This document shows, one piece after another, positions 6,613 through 56,087 of a stretch of DNA of 64,000 nt (position 1 is the first letter of the stretch; each line of letters starts with the position of its first letter). The notes below the pieces were generated by a model. That model did not search any database. It saw only the letters and a program-made list of their open reading frames with translations, and had not been told where the DNA came from. Origin of the DNA: Eledone cirrhosa (taxonomy: Eukaryota); contig OZ024740.1 in NCBI GenBank assembly GCA_964016885.1, positions 225,308,001 through 225,372,000 of the forward strand, written 5' to 3'. A program made the position numbers and the translations under genes.

Positions 6613-6746
<134 letters not shown>

Positions 6747-6898
6747 TACACGGGTGTGTATGATTGTGTATAGAAGATTATATTAATAAGAGGAATTCCA
6801 ACTCTGTCTGATTTACTCGTTTTATTTACAATCCTTTCAAATGTATAATGGTATTATAATGAAATCGTATGATAGAATATTAAATGTTAAGTGTTAAT

Positions 6899-6937
6899 TG
6901 AACAAGTACTTTCATGCTTTCGCAATCTTCAGGTTCA
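6899..6937 (-). ncRNA. Minimal type I hammerhead ribozyme
   Basis: Exact reverse complement of 7012-7050. Confidence 0.85.
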
Positions 6938-7011
6938 TAATGTGTGGTGAGAGTCAAGTTTGCAATTTTCAACTGTGTTGAAATTGCAAACTTGACTGTC
7001 ACCACACATTA

Positions 7012-7050
7012 TGAACCTGAAGATTGCGAAAGCATGAAAGTACTTGTTCA
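7012..7050 (+). ncRNA. Minimal type I hammerhead ribozyme
   Basis: TGAAC-CTGAAGA-TTGC-GAAA-GCAT-GAAA-GTAC-TT-GTTCA: canonical core, GNRA-capped stem II, palindromic stem III, 5-bp stem I. Confidence 0.85.
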
Positions 7051-7180
7051 ATTAACACTTAACATTTAATATTCTATCATACTATTTCATTATAATACGA
7101 TTATAAATGTTAAAGGATTGTAAATAAAACGAGTAAATCCGACAAAGTTGGAATGCCTCTTATTAATATATATATATATA

Positions 7181-10970: not shown

Positions 10971-13028
10971 CGGATACTCGTTCGCATGTCATGCATTACC
11001 TCTTCTTTTCAGAAGTTATTTCTGGAATGGAGTTTCTTACATATATACATGTCATGAAAAAGAAGGAATAGTAAAAACACATCTGTTGGTTTTTGCTTCT
11101 TATGCTGAGGGCCACTGTTTATAAAATGTAAGTTTTTGAGAAGTTTAACACATTAATGTTTGCATATGTAAATACAAGAGTTGGTTGAAAGGTTCATAGG
11201 CTGACTATGAAAGAGTGAGGCTAGCACTTGCTTGCATTAATTGCAACTCTTCTCATAAAATGTTTTAATCGAAGATGCTCAATAGAAGTTTGACTTTGGA
11301 ACAAATATTTTTAGCTTGAAAAGCATATATGAGTGAATGAATTAAATGTTTGTGTGTATTTACTAATGCGTACATTGGTATGGTTTTGTCTATGATGAAC
11401 AAGTAGAACATACGTAGGAGTGGGAAAGTGTAAGGATATAGCATAACTTTGAGCATTCTAGAGTTATATATGTGTATGAAAAATAAAAGCTTAATTTCTG
11501 ATGATGATGATGGAAGTAGATCTGGTTGATAGAAGATAAATAGCAGTCATGTTTCCTAAGGACAGCCTACTGTGGTTCTTGTGATAGAAAAGAATGATAA
11601 AGCAGTAACAGTCCAGTGGTCTGAGGAACTGAGAATATTTGATCTGTTTGATGTAGAAAGGAAACTGGAATCTATCAACGTACTTTGTCACTTCCAATTA
11701 TGATTTTGTCTTCATATATCCCTGGAAATGCTGTCGTATGACCCTCAGAAGACATCTTACTGGAGATATATGAGTAGTAGGAATTTTACTTGCACAATAA
11801 TCAAACGTTTGTAAAGGCTAACGAATTCCCAGTTGTTGAAATTTTATCCTACTGTGATTAAAAGGCTTATGCTTTGATATGTTTCTTTAGATAGGGACAG
11901 TAGGAAAGATAGAAATAGTAAGAGGCTTATAGGCAGAAAGTAAACGACAGAGGCAGAAATAAACACACACACTCACAGAGAGAGAGAAAGGAAGCAAGAA
12001 GTGGAGAGAGAAATAAAGAACTAGTGACCCTTGCAACCTCTGCCAACGCAGGAAAATGTTTGCAAAATCAATGATGAATACATTGAGGTTTTATGTAATA
12101 TTTATGAGTTGTTATGCTAAAAATCATCTCGTTTCTAACTTCAGTTACAAAGCAGAACAAATACTTTTTTTTAGGAAATAGCCCATTTGAGATATCTCAG
12201 CTTTTCTTCATAAGAAATAGTTTCTATTTAATTTCCTATAATTTTTTTCTTGTTGCAAAGATTTATTAAAAGCAATATTATCAAAGTGAAGGTATGTGGC
12301 CAAGTGGTTAGAATGTTAGTCTTACAAACATGTGATTATACCTGGAGGGGAAGTAAGGAGGATCTAGTCTCTGCCACGTTTTAAAATGCTCTAGAATTGC
12401 TGTATGTCAATACTGCACCCCTGTGACTCCCTTAGGAGTTACAGGACCATGCATGCATATAAATATAATTTCAATCCTATGACCTAACAGTGCAATGCCA
12501 CACATCCTTTCCCAGTGCTACAGTCTACTCAGGTGAAAACGAATACTAGCCACTGTGGGTTAATCTTGCAATGGATTGGTAATCCTATAAGAGATCATGT
12601 ACTCTCAGTCTCCAAATATCTCATCCAAATCCTACCAGATTTGTAAAAGAGACATTAAACTGAATAAAGGTAAAGTAGGAGGAACATTATAAATAAAAGA
12701 AAAACAATTGTTTCCATTCTATATACAGGTTTAGTTATTGAAATATAATTTAGAATATAAACGGAAAAAATGAAACGAAATTTCATTTCTCACTCTTAGT
12801 ACGGCTGTTACTTAAATATAAGTATGTATACGTACATACATATATGTATACAGACGTACAGTAGTATGTATATATATATATACATACATGCACACATATA
12901 TATATGTACGTATGGATTCACCGAACATTTATTACAATGCTCGGTGTGTTTGTAAACAAACATCCCGAATTAAGCCGTACAGTGTCTAGCAACCATCGTT
13001 GCTCATTTGTTCAACACTGACAAAGGAA

Positions 13029-13068
13029 CGCTGTACTAGTTTCAAGCTTATTAGCTATCATCAGCAAC
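13029..13068 (-). ncRNA. Minimal type I hammerhead ribozyme
   Basis: Minus strand GTTG-CTGATGA-TAGCT-AATA-AGCTT-GAAA-CTAG-TA-CAGCG. Confidence 0.88.
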
Positions 13069-13431
13069 TTATACCTTCCTGCCAGATGATTGAACGTCTG
13101 AAAGTATATACTCTCCTTATGCATATTAACGGCTGAGCAGCCTAATTTGCATATCGACTGAGTTAATCGGCCGGGGTACCGAAAACGGTAAACGGAAAAA
13201 ATGAAACGAAATTTGTATGTATACATATATTTATGTACGTATACATACTTATATTTAAGTAACAGCCGTACTAAGAGTGAGAAATGAAATTTCGTTTCAT
13301 TTTTTCCGTTTATCGTTTTCGGTACCCCGGCCGATTAACTCACTCGATATGCAAATTAGGCTGTTCAGCCGTTAATATGCATAAGGAAAGTATATACTTT
13401 CAGACGTTCAATCATCTGGCAGGATGGTATA

Positions 13432-13472
13432 CGTTGCTGACGATAGCTAATAAGCTTGAAACTAGTACAGCG
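13432..13472 (+). ncRNA. Minimal type I hammerhead ribozyme
   Basis: CGTTG-CTGACGA-TAGCT-AATA-AGCTT-GAAA-CTAG-TA-CAGCG; canonical core, GUA site, palindromic stem III ACTAGT. Confidence 0.88.
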
Positions 13473-15193
13473 TTCCTTTGTCAGTGTTGAACAAATGAGC
13501 AACGATGGTTGCTAGAAACTGTACGGCTTAATTCGGGATGTTTGTTTACAAACACACCGAGCATTATAATAAATGTTCGGTGAATCCATACGTACATATA
13601 TATATATGTGTGCATGTTTGTATATATGTATACATACTACTGTACGTCTGTATACATATATGTATGTACGTATACATACTTATATTAGAATATAAAATAA
13701 TTACCCTAAAATATAATAAATTATAATAATGAAGTATCCTATTCATTTCATACCTACTGAAGTTAAATTTAGTACACCTATTCTTCTCTGAACATTGCTT
13801 GTCTATCTGTAAATTTGCGAGAAATATGTGACAAAAATTCAAAAGTAACTTAGGAGGTAGCTTGTATTCGCTATCCAAACATAATGCGTTGATTAGCTGC
13901 CTTGGCTTATAAAAGGGGTTTGACTTTTTGTCTGTTTCTCAGACATAAAATTGGGTCAGCTTATATTCAAGTATATATGGTAATTAAAAATTTCAATTTA
14001 ATATCTTTATTCCTGTGTTGTTAATAATTTGGATATAACATTATCTTGGTAAGAATGACTTGTGGTAGCAATCATCCTATGCCATTATTGATATCAGTTA
14101 ATTAGCTTATGAAATGTGAATGACATCTATTTTCTCAATTGGTTACACCAAGATAAGCCATGTAACTGCAGTTGTGGTGCAGTAATTATTTTTCTCGTGC
14201 CTTGGGATCAAACCATTTATCACCAGCGTATTAAAGTGCAATGGTTACCTGTCTTTTCATCACTGAGGATCTCTATTATTTAAAAGAATTTTCCCAGAGA
14301 CATTAGGCTTTTGAAATGTCTGTTGACTACTCACAAACAGCCTCCACTACCTCTATGAATCTCCAGGGGATCACAGACCACAAGTTGGAAACTACAATTC
14401 TATTATAAAGAGTAGATCAGGATCAGTGCTAATTTTATTACTGAAATTAGAAGATTGACATGGAAATAGGATATCTCTATATAATTCCCTCATAAAACTA
14501 AAGGGCTGTTTATCATTGATCAATGTTGTTGTTTAGTGAGATGGCAGTATGTTTTTAAAGGGATCTGTCTGCTGAATAGATAAAATAATATAACGTTCAG
14601 ACATACAATATCAGCAAACATAGAATATTATAAAATACAGATATAACAATCTATCTCTTCAATTACCATCACCACCATCATCATTATCATCATCATCATC
14701 ATATTTTTCCATGCTTTTCCATGGGTTTGAAGGCACATGGCCTGGCAGTTAGAGAATTGGATTTGCAATTATGAGGCTATGCATTTGTTTCCCAGACCAA
14801 GTGATGTGTTATGTCCTTGAGTTAGACACTTTATTTCATGTTGCTGTTTCTGCCAGATATTGCAGCTAGTAGATAGTATCAGCATTGGAAAGAATAGTAA
14901 TGGAAACATTGTGTCCTTGGTCTGATTTTATGAGCTCCATCCTATACAGTAATCAAAATCGATTCCATATGGGTTAAATATGGCTTTTTCAGTGCAGCAC
15001 ACCTCTATTTGTTTCTTTTCATAGTCATCACTTTGGTACAGCTCAGCATCCTTAGATCTGCTCTCACTACTTCTGCTTGAGTCTTACTCTACTGCAACTT
15101 CCTCCCACTTAGATCTTTTGGTTCTTCTTCACCCAACAATTATCATCCATGCACGTTACTAGTCCATACTAGCACAATTCTTTTCACTTGCAC

Positions 15194-21329: not shown

Positions 21330-21368
<39 letters not shown>

Positions 21369-21554
21369 CAAATGTTAACAAATGAAAAATATTCTCATAA
21401 TCAAAATATATACTTTATTATATATATTTCAAAGGAACTGTCTTGTTTTTTCAGTACGTCCTCATCAGACAAAATATATGATTTGATATATGACATACTG
21501 CTGCGGTCATGATTATTCAATTCCAGTATTGGCAGTTATATATATATATATATA

Positions 21555-21952
21555 TTCAGATTTGAGGTTCACCACTGTATAGAGCTGGTCTATTCCGTAT
21601 GGTCAATCGTAATGCAATAATATAGAGAGTACTCAACGTAAAGCAGTTCAACCGTCTTTGTTTTTGTAGTTGGTGGTGCTATTACGGAGTTAAATATTAT
21701 AATGAAATGACAGGAGGCTGGATTTGTGTAAATTCTTGAAAGGTTTATTATACTATGATCATTTCAATGACCGGGTTCCGTATGAATCCGGTGATATCAT
21801 CAGGTATTCGAAATATAATACGTGAATGTAATAGATAAAATCCATGGGGCTGAAAATCGAGGACCCGAGGGCGACCGCTATTCTGTTCCTTCAACCTCAG
21901 CCGGTCGCCCTTTCAAGGATTTACACAAATCCAGCCTCCTGTCATTTCATTA

Positions 21953-21958
<6 letters not shown>
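21555..21958 (-). mobile_element. Short non-coding HHR element between (TA)n tracts with 47-bp inverted repeat
   Basis: 21696-21743 is the reverse complement of 21909-21955; canonical HHR inside. Confidence 0.7.
21751..21806 (-). ncRNA. Minimal type I hammerhead ribozyme
   Basis: Minus strand TAC-CTGATGA-TATCACCGGATTC-ATAC-GGAACCCGGTCATT-GAAA-TGATCA-TA-GTA; palindromic stem III ATGATCAT. Confidence 0.8.
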
Positions 21959-21991
<33 letters not shown>

Positions 21992-26416: not shown

Positions 26417-26446
<30 letters not shown>

Positions 26447-26448
<2 letters not shown>

Positions 26449-29400
26449 CGATATTAAATAAATGGAAACTATATTTATAAAACCATATTTATTTCATTAT
26501 ATATATTTCAGGGATATCATATTAACAATATGTTATGCCTTCCTCAGACAAAATACAATATAGACAGTTTTATAGATAAATAGATTTGACATACCGTTCA
26601 ACATCGACTTGTATTTGAAAAAGTTGATTTGGCAGTGAAAAATTGTAAACAGAAAGAAAGAAAGAGAGAAAGAAGGAAAAAGAAAGAAAACGAAGAAAAA
26701 GAAGAAAAAGAAGAAATGCATGCAACAAAATAGAGAGATGGAAAGATAGATAAAGAGAAGAACTTCATGTAAAGAAACAGAGAGAGATATATATAGAGAG
26801 AGGAAATAGATAGAGATAGATATATAGAGAGAAAAGTAGGTAGTTGGACATCCGTTGAATGAACGTATCAATGATACATTTATTTATTTATTTATTTATT
26901 TATTTAGCTCTAGTATTAATGTAAGGGAGATATATGTGGTTAGGAAAGAAACCAGCCGTTATATAGAGAGAAAAATGAGAAGTAACCAGACATAGGCGAG
27001 GCAGAATTTAAACCCTATGTTTTAATGTAGAAATATTAGTTCGTATAAAAACCAGGCACTATAATGTAAATATCAGTATTCCTGAATGAGACACGTATCC
27101 ATAATGTGTGAAAAGTAATGATCTTATGTCTAGTTTTAAAAATTCATATGTTTATATGATAACTACAAACATCGATGTGAATTTACGTGATCAACTCTGC
27201 AAACCCCTATTTCACAGGAGAACATTCTCATTGTGCTATAAAAATTTAAGTATACATATATGTGTATATATACACATATATATAGAGTCTATATTAATTT
27301 TAACAATACTATTCTTGTCTTTACTCTACATGATTATCTATCAAGCAGAAATAGAGAACAGATTTCAATATATCAATAAAAAATATCAGAAACAAAAACA
27401 AAAAATAATAATAATAATAATAATAAACAAATAAATAAAATAGAAAACTAAAAAATATTACATATTAAAAATAAAAATATTAAAAATATTAAAAATATTA
27501 AAAAATATTATTAAAAAAATATTAAAATAATAAAAATAAAAATAAAAACATAATAGAAACATAATATGCCACGCAAATCGACCACAAAGATCAACCCTTC
27601 AAAATTAATTGACAATATATTGCCAAGTTCATTATAAGCATCAGAGTCGAAAACAGATAAAGCTAAAAATGATTTACCAAATCGCGTCTAACAGAAATCA
27701 TTTCAAAAAAGTTTAGGATGCCCATTTGGTCTACATATGTTCTTATATTTAATATAGAAGTTTATCTAGTGTAACGTTTATTCGAAATATTTGGAGCATC
27801 AACTTTTAGGGTAGTTTAATTTTTCATGAAGAATGTTTAAATAAAAATAAAAATAAAAAGAAGAATAAAAAGAAGAAATCGAAAGATTTATCGGCTAGTT
27901 TCCCAAATAATTATAAATCAAACTAAATATACTACATTTTAAATTTAAATTTATATTTAAAAGTTGAGTTCAATCTATGTTTGCAACAACTGAATAAATT
28001 TGTCCGTAGATTAAGGGAATTTTTAGATTTTAGTATAAAGAATATCTCCTCCGCGCAGAGGTCACATGTCTCAGAGGATGAATTAAAAGGAATCCCTCTT
28101 GAGACTATATTCCAAGCCGTCGAATATCTAACGTTATCTTGCCTAAGTTGCCAGAGTACGCCTGATAGTGCTGTTGAAGATTTTTTGCTTGGATCTGTGA
28201 AAGAATTCTTGTGGTTATTATAGCGAAGTTTAAATTCCGTCGATGTGGAACCGACATAGTTAAAAGAATTAGAGTCCGTTTTAACATTACAGTTGTATAT
28301 TATATTTTTAACTAAGCAGTTGTTATTTAACGGACATTTAGATCTATCTCTACAGTTACATTTGTTAACTTGTATATTATTTATGCTATTATCGCTAGGT
28401 TTTAAGTTCCTATTATTTATTCTATTAATATTTTGTGCTAAATTTTTGGTGGATGAGTAGGTTAATTTTATAGTATGTCTATTGAAAATTGAGTGATACC
28501 TATGTGTTCTAGGGAAGCGATTATCAAGAGCTTTAAAAAATAGTTTAGCGATGTGGGTTTTAATGTTTAGTGAGAAAGGGGGGGGGGGGGGGCAAACCAT
28601 ATTATGTTCCTAGTTCTATTTCTTTTTTGGCTTTTGGAATTATTGTAATGCTTTCTATTATAGTTGTTAATGTTGTGGCCGTAATTAAAATAGTTGTTAT
28701 TTTGTTTAGTTTGTCTATCATTATCTATGTACATAATCTTATCACTATATCCTGCTCTAGCTAACGCTTCATTGTAGTACTGGGCTTTTTCGTCGAAAAT
28801 CTTTCTATTAGACGAGATTCTAGAGATACGTTTTTGAACAGAGTTTACTATAGTGTTTTTGACAGATCTGGGTTGGTTAGAGTTAAAGCTGACATAGTTT
28901 AAGTTTTCATTCAACTTGTGAAAAGGATAGTGAAGACATGTGTTGAGATTTAATGTTATATCTAGGAAATTGACTATTCTATGGTTGTTCTCAATTTCTA
29001 TTTTTAGATTAAAGTAATTAAAAAATTGTGTAATTTGTTTTCTTTTTCTATTTAGTTCAGAGTTATTATTATCAATAAGTAAAAGCATGTCATCTCTATA
29101 TAAACCTCCGGTAGTACCAGGTATTTTCCTATGTAGCGAATTGATTAAAAATAAGCCCACAAGGTCAGTTACCTGAGCTGAGTCGGATGATCCCATAGTA
29201 ATGTCAAAATTGCTATCTCTATCTGCTCTGGTCCATAGTTGGTCATTAAATTCTATCAATGTTTTCCTAGCCGATAATATAATGTGCATTTCATTGCTAG
29301 TTAGGTCTGTATGTTTGAATGCGTAATTTAGTGCCTTATTTAGTAGATTAGGGGTAATAGAAGAATAATAGTTAGCAATATCAAGTTGAATAAACTTATT

Positions 29401-29530
29401 ATTATTGTTTTATTTAATTTGCTTAAACCACTCAACAACCTCTCCAGTTCCCTTCCACAAGCTCAGGTTAGGTAAACAATCCAAGTTTTTAATTTGCTGT
29501 ATCACCCTGTCAAGAATGTTTTTGCTTAAT
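26447..29530 (-). mobile_element. Inverted 5'-truncated copy of the Hydra-like Penelope element
   Basis: Near-identical reverse complement of 30232-33311; ORFs 28567-29289 and 27932-28600. Confidence 0.95.
26492..26553 (-). ncRNA. Hammerhead ribozyme in PLE tail
   Basis: Reverse complement of 33205-33266. Confidence 0.75.
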
Positions 29531-29608
29531 CTTGTATCACCCTGTCAAGAATGTTTTTGCTTTATCTTGCTCCAATACTGTTGAGCGCTTTATATTATAA
29601 CTGAAAAA

Positions 29609-31826
29609 ATGGAATTCTTTAAGATTACTTCCTCTTTAAAAGACATACCTCTACCTAGAAACAAAGACTTTATAAAACAATTAATAGATAAATCTGACTC
29701 TTTTATAAGGAGAATCAGGTGGCGAGCATTCCACTTTGATAAATCTAATATAAATGAAAATGTCTCGGACTTAAACAAAGTTTTCAAATCTAAAAGAAAT
29801 CCACCCCCTAACAAACTTTTATCTGACTTTGAAAACGATATAATTTCTATCATACAAGGGGTCAAATTCAAGAGAAACTTCAAAGGCCAGGAATATCTGA
29901 AAGGCATTAAGGATAATATTGAGAGCTTAGAGAAAACTGAGAAGATCTTGGTGAAATCTGACAAGACCAACAACCTCTATGGAGTGCAGAAAGACATGTA
30001 TAATGGCCTCATACTGAAGGAACTGAGGAAAAAGTACAAGGTAGCAGATAAGGCCGAGCTCGAGAAAATGAATGTCGAAGCATCTTGTATAATGCACGAG
30101 TTGGAAATTGAGAACAGAACACAACCTTTCGTGCCCAGGAAACCGAAGATCAATATGAAAGATCACAAAAGGAATTTTGAAAATGACTTGCCAGTTAGAT
30201 TGATCGCACCATCAAAATCTTACCTGGGCAAATTAAGCAAAAACATTCTTGGCAGGGTGATACAGCAAATTAAAAACTTGGATTGTTTACCTAACCTGAG
30301 CTTGTGGAAGGGAACTGGAGAGGTTGTTGAGTGGTTTAAGCAAATTAAATATAACAATAATAATAAGTTTATTCAACTTGATATTGCTAACTATTATTCT
30401 TCTATTACCCCTAATCTACTAAATAAGGCACTAAATTACGCATTCAAACATACAGACCTAACTAGCAATGAAATGCACATTATATTATCGGCTAGGAAAA
30501 CATTGATAGAATTTAATGACCAACTATGGACCAGAGCAGATAGAGATAGCAATTTTGACATTACTATGGGATCATCCGACTCAGCTCAGGTAACTGACCT
30601 TGTGGGCTTATTTTTAATCAATTCGCTACATAGGAAAATACCTGGTACTACCGGAGGTTTATATAGAGATGACATGCTTTTACTTATTGATAATAATAAC
30701 TCTGAACTAAATAGAAAAAGAAAACAAATTACACAATTTTTTAATTACTTTAATCTAAAAATAGAAATTGAGAACAACCATAGAATAGTCAATTTCCTAG
30801 ATATAACATTAAATCTCAACACATGTCTTCACTATCCTTTTCACAAGTTGAATGAAAACTTAAACTATGTCAGCTTTAACTCTAACCAACCCAGATCTGT
30901 CAAAAACACTATAGTAAACTCTGTTCAAAAACGTATCTCTAGAATCTCGTCTAATAGAAAGATTTTCGACGAAAAAGCCCAGTACTACAATGAAGCGTTA
31001 GCTAGAGCAGGATATAGTGATAAGATTATGTACATAGATAATGATAGACAAACTAAACAAAATAACAACTATTTTAATTACGGCCACAACATTAACAACT
31101 ATAATAGAAAGCATTACAATAATTCCAAAAGCCAAAAAAGAAATAGAACTAGGAACATAATATGGTTTGCCCCCCCCCCCTTTCTCACTAAACATTAAAA
31201 CCCACATCGCTAAACTATTTTTTAAAGCTCTTGATAATCGCTTCCCTAGAACACATAGGTATCACTCAATTTTCAATAGACATACTATAAAATTAACCTA
31301 CTCATCCACCAAAAATTTAGCACAAAATATTAATAGAATAAATAATAGGAACTTAAAACCTAGCGATAATAGCATAAATAATATACAAGTTAACAAATGT
31401 AACTGTAGAGATAGATCTAAATGTCCGTTAAATAACAACTGCTTAGTTAAAAATATAATATACAACTGTAATGTTAAAACGGACTCTAATTCTTTTAACT
31501 ATGTCGGTTCCACATCGACGGAATTTAAACTTCGCTATAATAACCACAAGAATTCTTTCACAGATCCAAGCAAAAAATCTTCAACAGCACTATCAGGCGT
31601 ACTCTGGCAACTTAGGCAAGATAACGTTAGATATTCGACGGCTTGGAATATAGTCTCAAGAGGGATTCCTTTTAATTCATCCTCTGAGACATGTGACCTC
31701 TGCGCGGAGGAGATATTCTTTATACTAAAATCTAAAAATTCCCTTAATCTACGGACAAATTTATTCAGTTGTTGCAAACATAGATTGAACTCAACTTTTA
31801 AATATAAATTTAAATTTAAAATGTAG
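29609..31826 (+). CDS. PLE reverse transcriptase plus GIY-YIG endonuclease, interrupted by one frameshift in a poly-C run at 31170-31180
   Basis: Motifs KSDKT, QLDIANYYSSI, ITMGS, GLYRDD, VNFLDITL, WFAPP|FS, CNCRDRSKCPLNNNC, IIY...YVG, CDLC and CKHR; ORF track 29609-31198 and 31167-31826. Confidence 0.9.
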
Positions 31827-33204
31827 TATATTTAGTTTGATTTATAATTATTTGGGAAACTAGCCGATAAATCTTTCGATTTCTTCTTTTTATTCTTCTT
31901 TTTATTTTTATTTTTATTTAAACATTCTTCATGAAAAATTAAACTACCCTAAAAGTTGATGCTCCAAATATTTCGAATAAACGTTACACTAGATAAACTT
32001 CTATATTAAATATAAGAACATATGTAGACCAAATGGGCATCCTAAACTTTTTTGAAATGATTTCTGCTAGACGCGATTTGGTAAATCATTTTTAGCTTTA
32101 TCTGTTTTCGACTCTGATGCTTATAATAAACTTGGCAATATATTGTCAATTAATTTTGAAGGGTTGATCTTTGTGGTCGATTTGCGTGGCATATTATGTT
32201 TCTATTATGTTTTTATTTTTATTTTTATTATTTTAATATTTTTTTAATAATATTTTTTAATATTTTTAATATTTTTAATATTTTTATTTTTAATATGTAA
32301 TATTTTTTAGTTTTCTATTTTATTTATTTGTTTATTATTATTATTATTATTATTTTTTGTTTTTGTTTCTGATATTTTTTATTGATATATTGAAATCTGT
32401 TCTCTATTTCTGCTTGATAGATAATCATGTAGAGTAAAGACAAGAATAGTATTGTTAAAATTAATATAGACTCTATATATATGTGTATATATACACATAT
32501 ATGTATACTTAAATTTTTATAGCACAATGAGAATGTTCTCCTGTGAAATAGGGGTTTGCAGAGTTGATCACGTAAATTCACATCGATGTTTGTAGTTATC
32601 ATATAAACATATGAATTTTTAAAACTAGACATAAGATCATTACTTTTCACACATTATGGATACGTGTCTCATTCAGGAATACTGATATTTACATTATAGT
32701 GCCTGGTTTTTATACGAACTAATATTTCTACATTAAAACATAGGGTTTAAATTCTGCCTCGCCTATGTCTGGTTACTTCTCATTTTTCTCTCTATATAAC
32801 GGCTGGTTTCTTTCCTAACCACATATATCTCCCTTACATTAATACTAGAGCTAAATAAATAAATAAATAAATAAATAAATGTATCATTGATACGTTCATT
32901 CAACGGATGTCCAACTACCTACTTTTCTCTCTATATATCTATCTCTATCTATTTCCTCTCTCTATATATATCTCTCTCTGTTTCTTTACATGAAGTTCTT
33001 CTCTTTATCTATCTTTCCATCTCTCTATTTTGTTGCATGCATTTCTTCTTTTTCTTCTTTTTCTTCGTTTTCTTTCTTTTTCCTTCTTTCTCTCTTTTTT
33101 TCTTTCTGTTTACAATTTTTCACTGCCAAATCAACTTTTTCAAATACAAGTCGATGTTGAACGGTATGTCAAATCTATTTATCTATAAAACTGTCTATAT
33201 TGTA

Positions 33205-33266
33205 TTTTGTCTGAGGAAGGCATAACATATTGTTAATATGATATCCCTGAAATATATATAATGAAA
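33205..33266 (+). ncRNA. Hammerhead ribozyme in PLE tail
   Basis: TTTTGT-CTGAGGA-AGG...CCT-GAAA-TATATA-TA-ATGAAA; palindromic stem III. Confidence 0.75.
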
Positions 33267-33395
33267 TAAATATGGTTTTATAAATATAGTTTCCATTTAT
33301 TTAATATCGTAAATATACTCCAAATACTTGTTGAGTGCTTTTATATCAGTTATAAATATTTACTAGTTGTAACCCAACAATTTAAATATAACTTT

Positions 33396-33663
<268 letters not shown>

Positions 33664-34373: not shown

Positions 34374-35345
34374 TTAGGTAAACGCTTGTATAGGGTCAGA
34401 AGAGAGGGGGCAGAAGGAATGGAGGATATGTTGTTGGAGTGGTAGAGTGATGGGGAGGTAGGTAAGAGGGAAAGGAACGCAGGTGTTGGGACGGTGCTGA
34501 TGAGGAGAGAGAGCTGTGGTATGGTCAGTTTCATGGGTGTGGGTGAGAGCAGCTTGGATTAGGGCAGGGGGATATCTATGCTGGATGAAGCGGGAAGCCA
34601 TGTGAAGGGAATGGGTTTTGAAATCGTCATTCTGGCTACAGAGCCGACGAAGACGGAGGAATTGGGAATAGGGTATGGAGTGTTTGGTGTGGGTTGGATG
34701 GGAGGAGGTGAAGTTGAGGTAAGAGTGGGAGTCTGTTGGTTTCCAGACGATGGAAGTAGAGAGGGTGTGGTGAGAATGATTGATAGATAGAGAGATATCT
34801 AGAAAAGGGACAGATGAATCAAAGATGAAGGTGGTGAAGGTGAGAGCAGGATGGAAAGATAGGACAAAAAATAGAAAGTATTCGAACTGTTCTCATGATA
34901 GAGAGGTAGCACTGATACAGTCGTTGATATAACGCCCATATAGCTCAGGAGTAGGTCCAGCGGGCTGGGAGAAGATCTGGGCTTCGATGTAGCCAACAAA
35001 CAAGTTGGCATAGTTTGGTTCCATTATGGTTCCCATCGCTACCCCTGAGACCTGCTGATAGAATTCACCCGAAAAGGAAAAGCCACTGAGGGTCAGAAAA
35101 AGCTCAGCCAGATGGAGAAGATTGGTAGTGCTGGGGTAAGGGGTAGGGTGCAAGTCTAAAAAATGTTGGAGAATATGGAGGCTGTCATCATGAGGGATGA
35201 CGGTACAGAGAGAGGTGATGTCTAGGGTAAAGAGAAGGTGAGAGGGGCCAAAAGGGAAGGAGAAGGAGTTGAAGTGTCTAAGGGCATGATTGCTATCGTG
35301 GATGTAGGAGGGGAGATTGACGACTAACGGGGGTGAGGATGGTGT
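34374..35345 (-). mobile_element. Penelope-like RT relic of a different (Neptune/Poseidon-like) clade
   Basis: FSFSGEFYQQVSGVAMGT.M.PNYANLFVG, RYIND and SIPYSQFLRLRRLCS motifs in disrupted frames. Confidence 0.85.
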
Positions 35346-46500: not shown

Positions 46501-47265
46501 GACTCGTAAAACCTATCCTTAAGTTCGTCTGGCAGCCCCGATTGGGGTGCGTAAGCTGATATTATTGTGGTAATTGTCTTATTCAGGACTAGTCTGAGTT
46601 TAATGATTCTTGCATTTACCCTGTACACTGAGATTACTTTATCTACCCACTTGTCAGCTAATAGTATACCTACACCACCCATCCCATCGTCATTTCCCAC
46701 CCAGAAAAATTTGTAGCACTGGCTTTTTCCTACAAGGACTCTAGCAGACCCTCCTCTCCATCTAGTCTCTTGCACACAACATACATCAACTTCCTTTCGC
46801 TCTAGCATTTCTACGATTTCTCCTGCTCTTCCTTTCATTGAGCCTACATTGATGGTACCAACTCGGAGTTTTGGGCATTTGTCGACACTCGTAGGGGAGG
46901 GTCTCTGGGTTGGCGCTTCACGTGGGTGCTTGGTAGCTCGCAGATTCATATTTCATCTATTGATTCAGAGTTGCTCGTGTATTCCCAGCTCATCCATCCC
47001 TAACGGTGAAAATTGAGGGCTAGAAGGACAGTGGTGGTGGGGTAATGGCAGGGTGTGTTGGGATGCGCCAGAGGAGGAGAGAGTTAGTTAGGCAGGTAGT
47101 AGCAGCAGCAGCAGCAGTGGAAATGGCATGCTAGGTTTGATTGGTCGAATAGACTATGGTGGTGTGTGGGGGTGGGGGGGAGGGAAATTGTGAGGTAGGA
47201 ACTGAGGGTCGCATGGTAAATATCCAAGTTAATACTACATCAGTAAAATTAACAATAATAACGTC
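43534..47265 (-). mobile_element. Apparently full-length RTE-clade LINE
   Basis: Single intact ORF, ~300-bp 3' UTR and (GAT)n tail at 43534; the 5' boundary is uncertain and may include the 95-bp array. Confidence 0.93.
43830..46949 (-). CDS. RTE ORF: APE endonuclease, reverse transcriptase and PHD-like C4HC3 zinc finger (1039 aa)
   Basis: TINVGSM, VQETRW, SAYAPQ, GDFNGH, LDFIL, SQHSLV (APE); QFGF, DLEKAFD, GVHQGS, YADD, YLG (RT); CSVC...CPKC...H..C...CSSC. Confidence 0.95.
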   Translation of the reverse strand: MNLRATKHPREAPTQRPSPTSVDKCPKLRVGTINVGSMKGRAGEIVEMLERKEVDVCCVQETRWRGGSARVLVGKSQCYKFFWVGNDDGMGGVGILLADKWVDKVISVYRVNARIIKLRLVLNKTITTIISAYAPQSGLPDELKDRFYESLIHTTALTDDKDFLIIAGDFNGHVGKHCDGFNRVHGGHGVGTRNEEGFRLLEFCDANDMSICNTNFKKPDNHLITYRSGEHSSQLDFILIRGRDRWTVVNTKAFPSEECTSQHSLVVSDLTVRTRRALKQRPTWRRKIWKLKVPSTSNRFKDILLNAYDSKEEQIETFNVEENWEFLKNNLLEATDEVCGWSKTSSRRRVTWWWNNKVDEAVKAKRQAWKEWKNGGSRVHYIETKREARRQVYLARREAEDRKFKHVLQREDQKQEVFKIARQCVRDSCDVIGEKCIRNDKGELALTSAEKKDAWKSHYDRLLNEENAWEEETLPHVDPIEGPAVQVSGSVVSKAIRDMKIGKATGPSGIAAEMLKASGSVGHTITTRIVNQVILEGAIPKDWCSSIIVNCYKGKGDALDRGNYRGIKLMDQVMKVTERVIAQLIRDRVNIDEMQFGFVPGKGTTDALFLVRQLQEKYLAKSKPLYLAFVDLEKAFDRVPRAVIWWALRKLGVDEWLVKAVQAMYRGAVSKVRIGNEYSEEFSVQVGVHQGSVLSPLLFIIVLQAITEEFKTGCPWELLYADDLALIAESMVELENKFQTWKQGLERKGLKVNMTKTKVLISRRENRTQIPSGKWPCSVCRKGVGRNSILCPKCKQWVHKRCSGISGSLIKNVGFTCSSCAETASKQPQETSTTNLWEGPVETVDSFCYLGDRISNGGGCSESTITRVRTGWKKFRELLPLLAAKGFSLRMKGRLYDACIRTAMLHGSETWALKVEDLRRLERNEACMLRWMCNSNIRERQSINELRERLSIRGIKCCVQERRLRWYGHVMRMKDDSCIKRCRALEVDGNRGVGRPKMTWDEVIKADLTQLHLSKSMTHDRDFWRHAVIQGTRPPMGTC

Positions 47266-47937
47266 ATGAAAAAAGCTACTAAGAGAAACCCTCGAAAATT
47301 TATCGCTAATACAGCAGGGAAAATTTAACGCTAATACAGCAGGGAACATCATATTAACGACATGAAAAAGCTACTAAGAGAAACCCTCGAAAATTTATCG
47401 CTAATACAGCAGGGAAAATTTAACGCTAATACAGCAGGGAACATCATATTAACGACATGAAAAAGCTACTAAGAGAAACCCTCGAAAATTTATCGCTAAT
47501 ACAGCAGGGAAAATTTAACGCTAATACAGCAGGGAACATCATATTAACGACATGAAAAAGCTACTAAGAGAAACCCTCGAAAATTTATCGCTAATACAGC
47601 AGGGAAAATTTAACGCTAATACAGCAGGGAACATCATATTAACGACATGAAAAAGCTACTAAGAGAAACCCTCGAAAATTTATCGCTAATACAGCAGGGA
47701 AAATTTAACGCTAATACAGCAGGGAACATCATATTAACGACATGAAAAAGCTACTAAGAGAAACCCTCGAAAGTTTATCGCTAATACAGCAGGGAAAATT
47801 TAACGCTAATACAGCAGGGAACATCATAATATTAACGACATGAAAAAGCTACTAAGAGAAACCCTCGAAAATTTATCGCTAATACAGCAGGGAAAATTTA
47901 ACGCTAATACAGCAGGGAACATCATAATATTAACGAC
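47266..47937. repeat. 95-bp tandem array, 7 near-identical copies
   Basis: CATGAAAAAGCTACTAAGAGAAACCCTCG at 47266, 47361, 47456, 47551, 47646, 47741 and 47839; each unit has CGCTAATACAGCAGGGAA twice. Confidence 0.95.
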
Positions 47938-50545: not shown

Positions 50546-50967
50546 CTGGAAAAAAAGGTAAAGGAAAGGAAATATAATAGAATACACTGACATGTACAAA
50601 AGAGGGGAAAAAAATCAACAAATTCATGGTTGGTTTATTTGTTGGATCAACTAACAGATTTTCTTTATCATGAACCATAACTGAATCGCTTGAGAACTTG
50701 AGCCATCAGTAATAGGATTCAACCCAGCAATTTGATAACCTACTTTATCATTATTTAGTTTACAATACTTTTCCGCATATCATGCATAAAGCTCCTATGA
50801 CCACAATAAATTCTCTGAAGCTAACTGCCAATAAAGTGATAGTGATCTGACTGTAGCTATGGTTACTAACAGACTATTGATGCTATTATAACAGAAAATG
50901 CTTCTGAATGGCTGAAGTGTAGAGAATTTAGATCAGGAGCAACAAGTACACTAAATAGGTTTAACAT

Positions 50968-51200
50968 AACAGACAAACTTTATTGATTCCTTTCACAGGG
51001 ACAAAACTCAGATTTATATCGAAGAAATGAGATTGTGTGACATTCATGCTTTGCTTAGAGGCAATCATGACCTGAAATTAATATAACAGACAAACTCTAT
51101 TGATTCCTGTCATCAGTACAAACCTCAGATTTATATGGATGAAATGAGATTATGTGACATTCGTTCTTTACTTAGGAGCAATCACGACCAGAAATTAAAG
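50968..51200. repeat. Diverged 117-bp tandem duplication
   Basis: AACAGACAAACT-TATTGATTCCT at 50968 and 51085. Confidence 0.85.
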
Positions 51201-54860: not shown

Positions 54861-55330
54861 ATTTCCACTAGTCTTGATTTTACTGGTTTATTGTTATGCT
54901 ATGCTTATGTCTACTGTTTCATGAACTTTAGTATTATTAAGGCAAGGCTTAGAACTACTTTTATAATGCTTTTAATAGAGTTGAAGTATATTTTGTCAGT
55001 ATATCCTGATCTAGCAAGTGTTTCATCTTGCACACACACACATATGTGTGTGTGTATATATATATATTTATATATATTTATATAGATATAGATATATATA
55101 TATACGGGTAACAGATTATTGTTATAGGTAGTCCACTTAAGTGTAGTCCAGTTATGGTAGTCCAAGTAGTGGATGATATCAACACTTGGCTAAGTCTGAC
55201 TCAACAAGGCGTTTCCATAGTGATGCTGCGAGTACACTGTAATTTCTATGTTGTAAACACTTGGAGTAATGATAAATCAGGAAAGAAGAGTGACACGGTT
55301 TGCTATACAAAAAAGGTTTTTAATCTCATT

Positions 55331-55436
55331 GCTAACAATTGTTTCTCTGAACTTGTAGGTCTAGAGATCGCTACCTGCTTGTTTTCACGTCATTGGATCA
55401 CCAATACAAAGTTATAACCAGTCAATTCATCGGAGC
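55331..55436 (-). ncRNA. Hammerhead ribozyme, CCGATGA core, long stem II insert
   Basis: Inverted copy of 55871-55976 with a GUU triplet. Confidence 0.55.
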
Positions 55437-55870
55437 TTGTGAGAATGAAAGGAATATACAGGCATGGCTACTATATATAGTAGTAATGGCATTCAATCAG
55501 AACAATAACAACAATACTAACAATGCTAGCAATAAATTATTTGAAATAATCACAACATCAATCTAGGTGAGAAATATAGCATACCTACGATTTTAGCGTG
55601 TAAACCTAGTTGACATGAGGCAGATGTATAAAATTGACATGTAAAAGCTGTCATGGGGTGTATTACATGTCAATTTTATACATCTGCCTCATGTCAGCTA
55701 GGTTTACACGCTAAAATCGTAGATATACTATATTTCTCACCTAGATTGATGTTGTGATTATTTCAAATAATGTATTGCTAGCATTGTTAGTATTGTTGTT
55801 ATTGTTCTGATTGAATGCCATTACTACTATATATAGTAGCCATGCCTGTATATTCCTTTCATTCTCACAA

Positions 55871-55976
55871 GCTCCGATGAATTGACTGGTTACAACTTGG
55901 TATTGGTGATCGAATAACGTGAAAACAAGCGGGTAGCGATCTCTAGACCTACAAGTTCAGAGAAACAATTGTCAGC
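55871..55976 (+). ncRNA. Hammerhead ribozyme, CCGATGA core, long stem II insert
   Basis: GCT-CCGATGA-ATTGACT...AGTTCAGA-GAAA-CAATTG-TC-AGC. Confidence 0.6.
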
Positions 55977-56029
55977 AATGAGATTAAAAAGCTTTTTTGT
56001 ATAGCAAACCGTGTCACTCTTCTTTCCTG

Positions 56030-56087
<58 letters not shown>

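What the first reader, a model, noticed from the sequence alone, without database searches (positions are those of the whole stretch)
12750..13696. Single insertion of two inverted, differently permuted, just-over-unit-length copies of a 431-nt ribozyme monomer
Seen: one 12-bp duplication (TTAGAATATAAA) brackets a minus copy (12759-13214, ~1.06 units) and a plus copy (13218-13686, ~1.09 units). Each has a short terminal redundancy but starts at a different point of the monomer, neither at the cleavage site. Each carries a canonical minimal HHR (CUGAUGA or CUGACGA, GUA site). Inference: this is the footprint expected if both target strands primed reverse transcription on a circular RNA and went slightly more than once round.
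Basis: partly seen in the sequence, partly recalled or inferred. Interest (0 to 1): 0.8.

Follow-up and report, generated by a model that had tools for sequence, protein, structure and literature searches.

The report
Ribozyme repeat inserted Penelope-style, back-to-back
This is one of thousands of copies of a small non-coding jumping repeat carrying a predicted self-cutting RNA motif; its back-to-back layout and two fixed outer ends match the known marks of Penelope-like retrotransposons, whose enzyme likely copied it, while the just-over-one-unit arm lengths are mostly chance and do not show a circular RNA.

Summary
In detail: a 12-bp duplication brackets two head-to-head arms (1.06 and 1.10 units) of a 431-nt hammerhead repeat. 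The repeat is a family of more than 6,400 copies. Across it, 3' ends are fixed at two monomer sites 56 nt apart (76 of 92 arms in a sample not chosen on ends). Head-to-head pairs nearly always carry one end of each kind (20 of 28; none of the same kind), mostly inside (TA)n. 5' ends scatter and arms run from 0.1 to over 2 units; 0 of 37 other pairs have both arms just over one unit. Protein-coding Penelope-like elements (PLEs) in this genome show the same two-end inverted anatomy, and it is published for PLEs (inverted pLTR, one-sided tail, two internal RT start sites, both strands primed). So priming from both target strands is supported, and the 'permutation' is two fixed starts plus random truncation. 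A circular template is neither shown nor excluded: stops are 2.4-fold enriched near one full turn, but several insertions mix subfamily units. No RNA data. It is a non-LTR retrozyme with a PLE footprint; this scan noted the same pattern before in other repeat families.

The parts
12750..12761 (+). Target-site duplication, left copy (TTAGAATATAAA); last 5 nt also match the arm's 3' end
12757..13214 (-). Long-end arm: monomer 73 round to 99, 1.06 units; 3' end at the family's distal fixed site (99)
12757..12812 (-). 56-nt one-sided tail (monomer 44-99) between the two fixed 3' ends; holds a predicted hairpin
13028..13070 (-). Type I hammerhead motif (CUGAUGA...GAAA...GUA), predicted cut between 13034 and 13033; one mismatch in stem I
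   Evidence: consensus read from the sequence
13214..13218 (.). Head-to-head (5'-5') junction; no microhomology, 0-3 untemplated nt
13215..13686 (+). Short-end arm: monomer 1(4) round to 41-43, 1.10 units; 3' end at the family's proximal fixed site (43)
13431..13473 (+). Type I hammerhead motif (CUGACGA U AGCU AAUA AGCU U GAAA CUAG UA), predicted cut after 13467; palindromic helix III, dimer type
   Evidence: architecture as in PMC4209133
13685..13696 (+). Target-site duplication, right copy; first 2 nt also match the arm's 3' end

Best explanation
The locus is a single insertion of an abundant non-coding hammerhead repeat (a non-LTR retrozyme) whose head-to-head arms end at two fixed sites, and it was likely copied in trans by a Penelope-like element's reverse transcriptase/endonuclease. 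Inferred steps: the enzyme nicks both strands of an AT-rich target about 12 bp apart (usually (TA)n). Each 3' end primes cDNA inside the RNA, one at monomer 99 and the other at monomer 43, 56 nt upstream. Both cDNAs run towards the RNA's 5' side through an uncut ribozyme site and stop at largely random points, more often near the hairpin at 66-125. The two 5'-truncated cDNAs are then joined head to head. Shown: family size, two fixed 3' ends, one of each per pair, duplications, scattered 5' ends, same anatomy in coding PLEs. Inferred: the enzyme and the RNA's form. For the RNA I put an uncut linear or mixed multi-unit transcript at about 0.5, a monomer circle at about 0.4, other at 0.1.
For: 6,420 exact matches to a 28-nt ribozyme pattern. 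In 59 loci chosen on the ribozyme, 76 of 92 arms end at 37-48 or 96-100; of 28 head-to-head pairs 20 are 43/99, 8 have one other end, none is 43/43 or 99/99; 65 of 76 such ends abut TA repeats. In 87 arms anchored at 99, 43 have an inverted partner and 37 of 43 partners end at 38-47. Duplications of 12-17 bp are legible at interrupted-TA targets, e.g. L001, L009, L062, L175, L184, L226. Arm lengths are uncorrelated (rho 0.10, p 0.55), and in 12 of 37 pairs neither arm is contained in the other. The genome holds RT + C-terminal GIY-YIG elements; one family has two TA-joined ends 64 nt apart with one long and one short end in 4 of 4 inverted loci (L256, L260, L263, L270), another has ends about 50 nt apart and an inverted pair (L257; also window 6700-7180). 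Published: both strands cut and extended, two internal RT start sites bounding the tail, ribozyme cleavage not needed (PMC11167929); inverted pLTR, one-sided tail, 8-10 bp TSD (PMC3846280; PMC8557442).
Against: No partner PLE was identified: no sequence shared with the 3' regions of 50 PLE loci beyond a weak T-rich likeness of the 99 end to one family's short end (10 of 1,000 shuffles, chosen after looking). The tail (56 nt) and duplication (12 bp) are longer than the 30-40 nt and 8-10 bp reported in the papers read, although same-genome PLE tails are 50-64 nt. Both primed ends show 2-5 nt of match to the target, whereas the Anolis enzyme started at non-homologous sites. 16 of 92 arms end elsewhere (some are later deletions or alignment ends, not checked one by one). 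No empty site was seen.
Confidence: 0.8

Rival explanations
1. One reading: the template is a ligated 431-nt monomer circle; two enzymes start at 43 and 99 and roll round it, and tend to stall when they return to the primed region and must displace strands, giving arms near one unit.
For: 107 of 166 arms cross the cleavage site, with no pile-up of 5' ends there (5 stops, ratio 0.71). Stops are enriched at monomer 70-125 (27 stops, 2.4-fold, p 2e-4 for a window chosen after looking; both arm types). Stop rate per 108 nt for 99-arms is 0.14-0.24 in the first unit and 0.31-0.50 in the second. Arms of a pair usually share subfamily (31 of 35 and 46 of 50 at two indel markers) and share rare alleles more than shuffled pairs (0.35% vs 0.04% of sites). 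The monomer folds strongly (z -8.7; partly TA palindromes). Mussel, coral and axolotl retrozymes are circular RNAs (PMC7229834, passages).
Against: 70% of 99-arms that reach position 125 on the first turn go on (35 of 50), and the same positions stop arms on the second turn (3 of 7). On inspection, 3 pairs have arms of different subfamilies at linked markers (L005, L083, L183) and 2 arms mix subfamilies in adjacent units (L059, L182): one monomer circle cannot give these. Rare alleles shared by both arms are in all copies 5 times but in a subset 15 times, often next to the centre, as gene conversion would give. Units within an arm (4.0%), between arms (3.7-3.8%) and between loci of one haplotype (3.9%) differ equally, so there is no one-molecule signal. 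Coding PLEs show overlapping inverted arms too. Long arrays show DNA-level expansion (2- and 4-unit periods). Each window arm has one ribozyme; only 18 of 166 arms hold two.
Confidence: 0.4
2. Fold-back: one arm was made first and the second is a snap-back or self-primed copy of it (self-priming was proposed for PLE palindromes in PMC3846280), or a later DNA-level inverted duplication.
For: Head-to-head geometry fits; 6 of 86 pairs have 5' ends within 15 nt of each other; alleles are shared near the centre.
Against: 6.2 such pairs are expected by chance. In 12 of 37 pairs neither arm is contained in the other. In the window neither arm contains the other and their 5' ends differ by about 70 nt. 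The strict 43/99 pairing is unexplained.
Confidence: 0.07
3. Two independent insertions into one site, or LINE-type twin priming on one linear RNA with abutting, non-overlapping arms.
For: The family is abundant and nested insertions in TA tracts occur (L006, L061, L065). A few pairs have arms of different subfamilies.
Against: One duplication brackets both arms; about half of 99-anchored arms have a partner within 30 nt (43 of 87); arms overlap over a whole unit; no poly(A) tail; independent events would give 43/43 and 99/99 pairs, and 0 of 35 pairs with both ends at fixed sites are such. The LINE twin-priming geometry is recalled, not read here.
Confidence: 0.05

Closest known systems
Metazoan non-LTR retrozymes (Cervera & de la Pena 2020, PMC7229834, passages read; Li, Clavereau & Pollet 2026, bioRxiv 10.64898/2026.07.22.740005, parts 1-3 of 5 read, supplements not seen)
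   Same: Non-coding 150-450-nt repeat, low GC, type I hammerhead per unit with short palindromic helix III, dispersed monomers plus tandem arrays, TSD longer than 4 bp, PLEs in the same genome and proposed as helpers.
   Different: Expression, cleavage and circles were not testable here. The passages read do not describe head-to-head pairs or two fixed 3' ends for retrozymes; the 2026 preprint argues from co-occurrence and pLTR phylogeny in vertebrates and leaves the mechanism open.
Insertions of endonuclease-bearing Penelope-like elements: inverted pLTR with one-sided tail (Arkhipova et al. 2013, PMC3846280; Craig et al. 2021, PMC8557442; passages read)
   Same: 5'-truncated inverted copy head to head, tail on one end only, TSD, microsatellite bias; opposite-strand hammerhead pairs 100-700 bp apart were noted in PMC4209133 (part 1 of 4 read).
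   Different: No ORF; the whole element is a tandemly repeatable unit; tail 56 nt and TSD 12-17 bp rather than 30-40 nt and 8-10 bp.
Poseidon PAc of Anolis in vitro (Frangieh et al. 2024, PMC11167929, parts 1-2 of 4 read)
   Same: Both target strands cut and extended; RT starts inside the RNA at two sites that bound the tail; AT-rich target; uncleaved RNA is used.
   Different: PAc is autonomous; its starts are about 30-40 nt apart and not homologous to the target; here ends match the target by 2-5 nt and lie 221 and 277 nt after the ribozyme site.

Membership tests
Non-LTR retrozyme | Short non-coding repeat unit with a type I hammerhead in each unit | tested here: met
   431/421-nt units; core intact in 118 of 150 units; read from consensus, Rfam negative
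Non-LTR retrozyme | Tandem arrays with at least two consecutive ribozymes, plus dispersed copies | tested here: met
   50-unit array; 18 of 166 arms hold two ribozymes; 6,420 pattern matches. The window's own arms hold one each.
Non-LTR retrozyme | No LTR/PBS/PPT; TSD longer than 4 bp | tested here: met
   12-17 bp duplications; PBS and PPT were not searched for formally
Non-LTR retrozyme | Self-cleavage of the RNA | not testable with these tools
   Needs in vitro transcription; the monomer fold alone is not better than shuffles, as expected for a dimer-type motif
Non-LTR retrozyme | Expressed as linear and circular RNA | not testable with these tools
   No RNA run was available for this stretch
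PLE-type insertion | Inverted 5'-truncated copy head to head within one TSD | tested here: met
PLE-type insertion | One-sided tail between two fixed RT start sites | tested here: met
   ends at 43 and 99, one of each per pair
PLE-type insertion | Shared cis sequence with an autonomous PLE (pLTR homology) | tested here: inconclusive
   No homology in 50 PLE loci beyond a weak T-rich match; only the best-scoring GIY-YIG hits were sampled
Autonomous PLE | ORF with RT and GIY-YIG endonuclease | tested here: not met
   The insertion is 930 bp made only of the 431-nt unit

The most novel reading that the evidence does not exclude
The family is copied from a ribozyme-made RNA circle by a dimeric Penelope enzyme whose two active sites start 56 nt apart and roll round the same circle from the two strands of one break, stalling more often once they return to the primed region; the window, with a rare non-microsatellite target, shows the whole footprint including the 12-bp stagger.
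Probability: 0.3. Interest if true: 0.7.

Novelty: new member of a known kind. Interest (0 to 1): 0.4.

Why it matters
That PLEs mobilise animal retrozymes has been proposed from co-occurrence and pLTR likeness, with the mechanism left open. A family whose insertions carry the PLE-specific mark (two fixed internal starts, one used by each target strand) is direct genomic support. It also suggests that the PLE tail and the inverted pLTR come from one two-primer event, and it names an RNA, two start sites and candidate enzymes for an in vitro test of circle against linear template. The single locus adds a legible duplication; it does not add evidence for circles.

Tried and rejected
Rfam: no hammerhead hit; the miRNA hits below threshold are TA-rich hairpins. 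Sequencing runs: no RNA holder listed. Empty site: the left flank is single-copy in the assembly, and contigs of 4 runs laid on the left flank showed no empty-site loose end among the rows shown, with two runs giving no cover; no verdict. An apparent pile-up of 5' ends at monomer 217-228 in ribozyme-anchored loci vanished in the end-anchored sample (ratio 1.11): sampling bias. Register test of shared alleles gave mixed results (4 loci in register, 7 out, 2 mixed). Divergence within versus between arms had no power (difference 0.4%, interval -0.3 to 1.1). Four apparent subfamily mixes (L091, L184, L195, L202) were dropped on inspection as larger deletions, mispairing or alignment errors. The 50-unit array is another haplotype than the window's arms, so it is not their source. 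Helper search: 50 GIY-YIG loci and the window's young inverted element gave no convincing shared sequence. The sigma-70 scan is irrelevant to an animal genome. The ribozyme lies outside all subfamily differences, but the count is too small to show selection.

Full report
Observation. The sequence is as described. TTAGAATATAAA occurs at 12750-12761 and 13685-13696 only; chance gave such a duplication in 5 of 19,002 trials. With window 13215-13645 as monomer 1-431, the minus arm runs 73 to 99 (1.06 units) and the plus arm 1 to 41 (1.10 units), 5' ends together, 3' ends outward, 96% alike. Each has a type I hammerhead consensus with a 2-bp palindromic helix III, the dimer-dependent form described in PMC4209133 (part 1 of 4 read). 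Rfam does not detect it.

The family. The window lies in a 3.0-Gb animal genome rich in microsatellites. A 28-nt ribozyme pattern has 6,420 exact matches; exact junction patterns of the two end types with TA repeats have 2,953 and 4,248. I took three samples: 30 best hits, 70 loci anchored on the ribozyme and 120 anchored on an end; the last two come from the first 111 Mb of contig C1 because the tool lists the first matches. After removing duplicates, 76 of 92 arms in 59 ribozyme-anchored loci end at monomer 37-48 or 96-100. Of 28 head-to-head pairs there, 20 have one end of each kind, 8 have one other end, and none has two of a kind; the best-hit set adds 15 of 19. Of 87 arms anchored at 99 (90 loci; one duplicate and two without anchor dropped), 43 have an inverted partner and 37 of these end at 38-47. 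Most ends abut (TA)n (65 of 76). Where the target is interrupted, duplications of 12-17 bp are legible. Copies are 0-4% from their subfamily majority for the most part, the window arms 1.0 and 2.1%.

Lengths and 5' ends. Arms range from under 0.1 to over 2 units: of 166, 99 are below one unit, 15 at 1.0-1.15, 52 longer. No other pair of 37 has both arms at 1.0-1.15, and the two lengths are uncorrelated. So the window's 'different permutations' are the two fixed 3' sites plus free 5' truncation, and its matched lengths are mostly coincidence. One deviation is real: stops are 2.4-fold enriched at monomer 70-125, around a hairpin in the tail (p 2e-4, window chosen after looking), in both arm types and again on the second turn; the stop rate about doubles after one unit. 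There is no excess at the cleavage site.

The same anatomy in coding elements. The genome has many RT plus C-terminal GIY-YIG elements. One family has a hammerhead variant and two TA-joined ends 64 nt apart, with one long and one short end in 4 of 4 inverted loci. A second has ends about 50 nt apart and an inverted pair at L257; a solo inverted pair of its terminal repeat lies in this window at about 6700-7180. This is the published PLE structure: inverted 5'-truncated copy, one-sided tail, TSD (PMC3846280 and PMC8557442, passages). In vitro, the Anolis PLE protein cuts and extends both target strands and starts at two internal sites that bound the tail, without needing ribozyme cleavage (PMC11167929, parts 1-2 of 4). 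I found no helper by sequence.

Mechanism. Most likely a PLE enzyme nicks both strands about 12 bp apart; one 3' end primes at 99 and the other at 43; both cDNAs are 5'-truncated and joined head to head (confidence 0.8). Fold-back copying is unlikely, since 12 of 37 pairs have neither arm inside the other and symmetric centres are no commoner than chance. Independent insertions would give like-ended pairs, and none was seen.

Circle or line. For a circle: 107 of 166 arms cross the ribozyme site; no run-off ends there; more stops near and after one turn; arms of a pair mostly share subfamily and some rare alleles; strong fold; related repeats in mussel, coral and axolotl are circular RNAs proposed as templates (PMC7229834, passages). 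Against: at least five insertions combine different subfamilies between arms or in adjacent units; shared rare alleles are more often in a subset of copies than in all (15 vs 5) and may be conversion; units of one insertion are no closer than copies of one haplotype elsewhere; a 530-nt linear RNA would template both window arms, and 31 of 99 long-end arms are that long; long arrays grew at DNA level. The family is too old for the test to have power. I put linear or mixed multimer at 0.5 and monomer circle at 0.4.

Novelty. It is a new member of the non-LTR retrozymes. A 2026 preprint (parts 1-3 of 5 read; supplements closed) already calls these non-autonomous PLE derivatives from distribution and phylogeny. 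In five searches on the topic and the passages read I did not find the two-fixed-end, one-per-strand footprint described for retrozymes; the library lacks most subscription papers, and I saw no supplements, including the life-cycle figure of PMC7229834. Earlier notes of this scan report the same pattern for other repeat families here and in another genome; none matched this sequence. I had reached the two-site reading before opening them, and their stronger circle claims are not confirmed in this family.

Noticed in passing
window 26441-33398: Very young head-to-head element: arms 100% identical over about 3.1 kb, RT-like ORF (YRDD) and a cysteine-rich, endonuclease-like C-terminal frame, TA flanks, about 80-nt tail on the right end only. 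Looks like a PLE; no Pfam hit at E 0.1.
   Followed up: partly
window 6700-7180: Inverted pair of the terminal repeat of a coding PLE family, each with a hammerhead motif (6932 minus, 7017 plus), long end left and short end right, in TA/TAGA repeats.
   Followed up: partly
window 55272-56035 and 125-473: Two more head-to-head inverted pairs (373 nt at 97%; 162 nt at 88%) with (TA)n at one end.
   Followed up: no
window 21365-21960: About 600-nt TA-flanked element with a possible hammerhead-like motif on the minus strand near 21803.
   Followed up: no
window 34452-35333: Minus-strand RT fragment about 30% identical to the genome's PLE proteins.
   Followed up: no
window 13349-13356: ATGCAAAT, recalled as the octamer of snRNA-type promoters, lies in each monomer about 110 nt before the ribozyme site; role untested.
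   Followed up: no
G000:C1:51772395-51793780 (L276-L278): 50-unit array of the same repeat, one haplotype, neighbours 4.7% apart with a 4-unit higher-order period; L095 and L055 show 2-unit periods.
   Followed up: yes
L251:952 (minus) and related loci: A coding PLE family carries a hammerhead with the U3-A8 core variant that PMC4209133 reports from schistosome PLEs.
   Followed up: no
window 47255-47926 and 50961-51198: Tandem repeats of 95 nt (7 copies, 98%) and 117 nt (2 copies).
   Followed up: no
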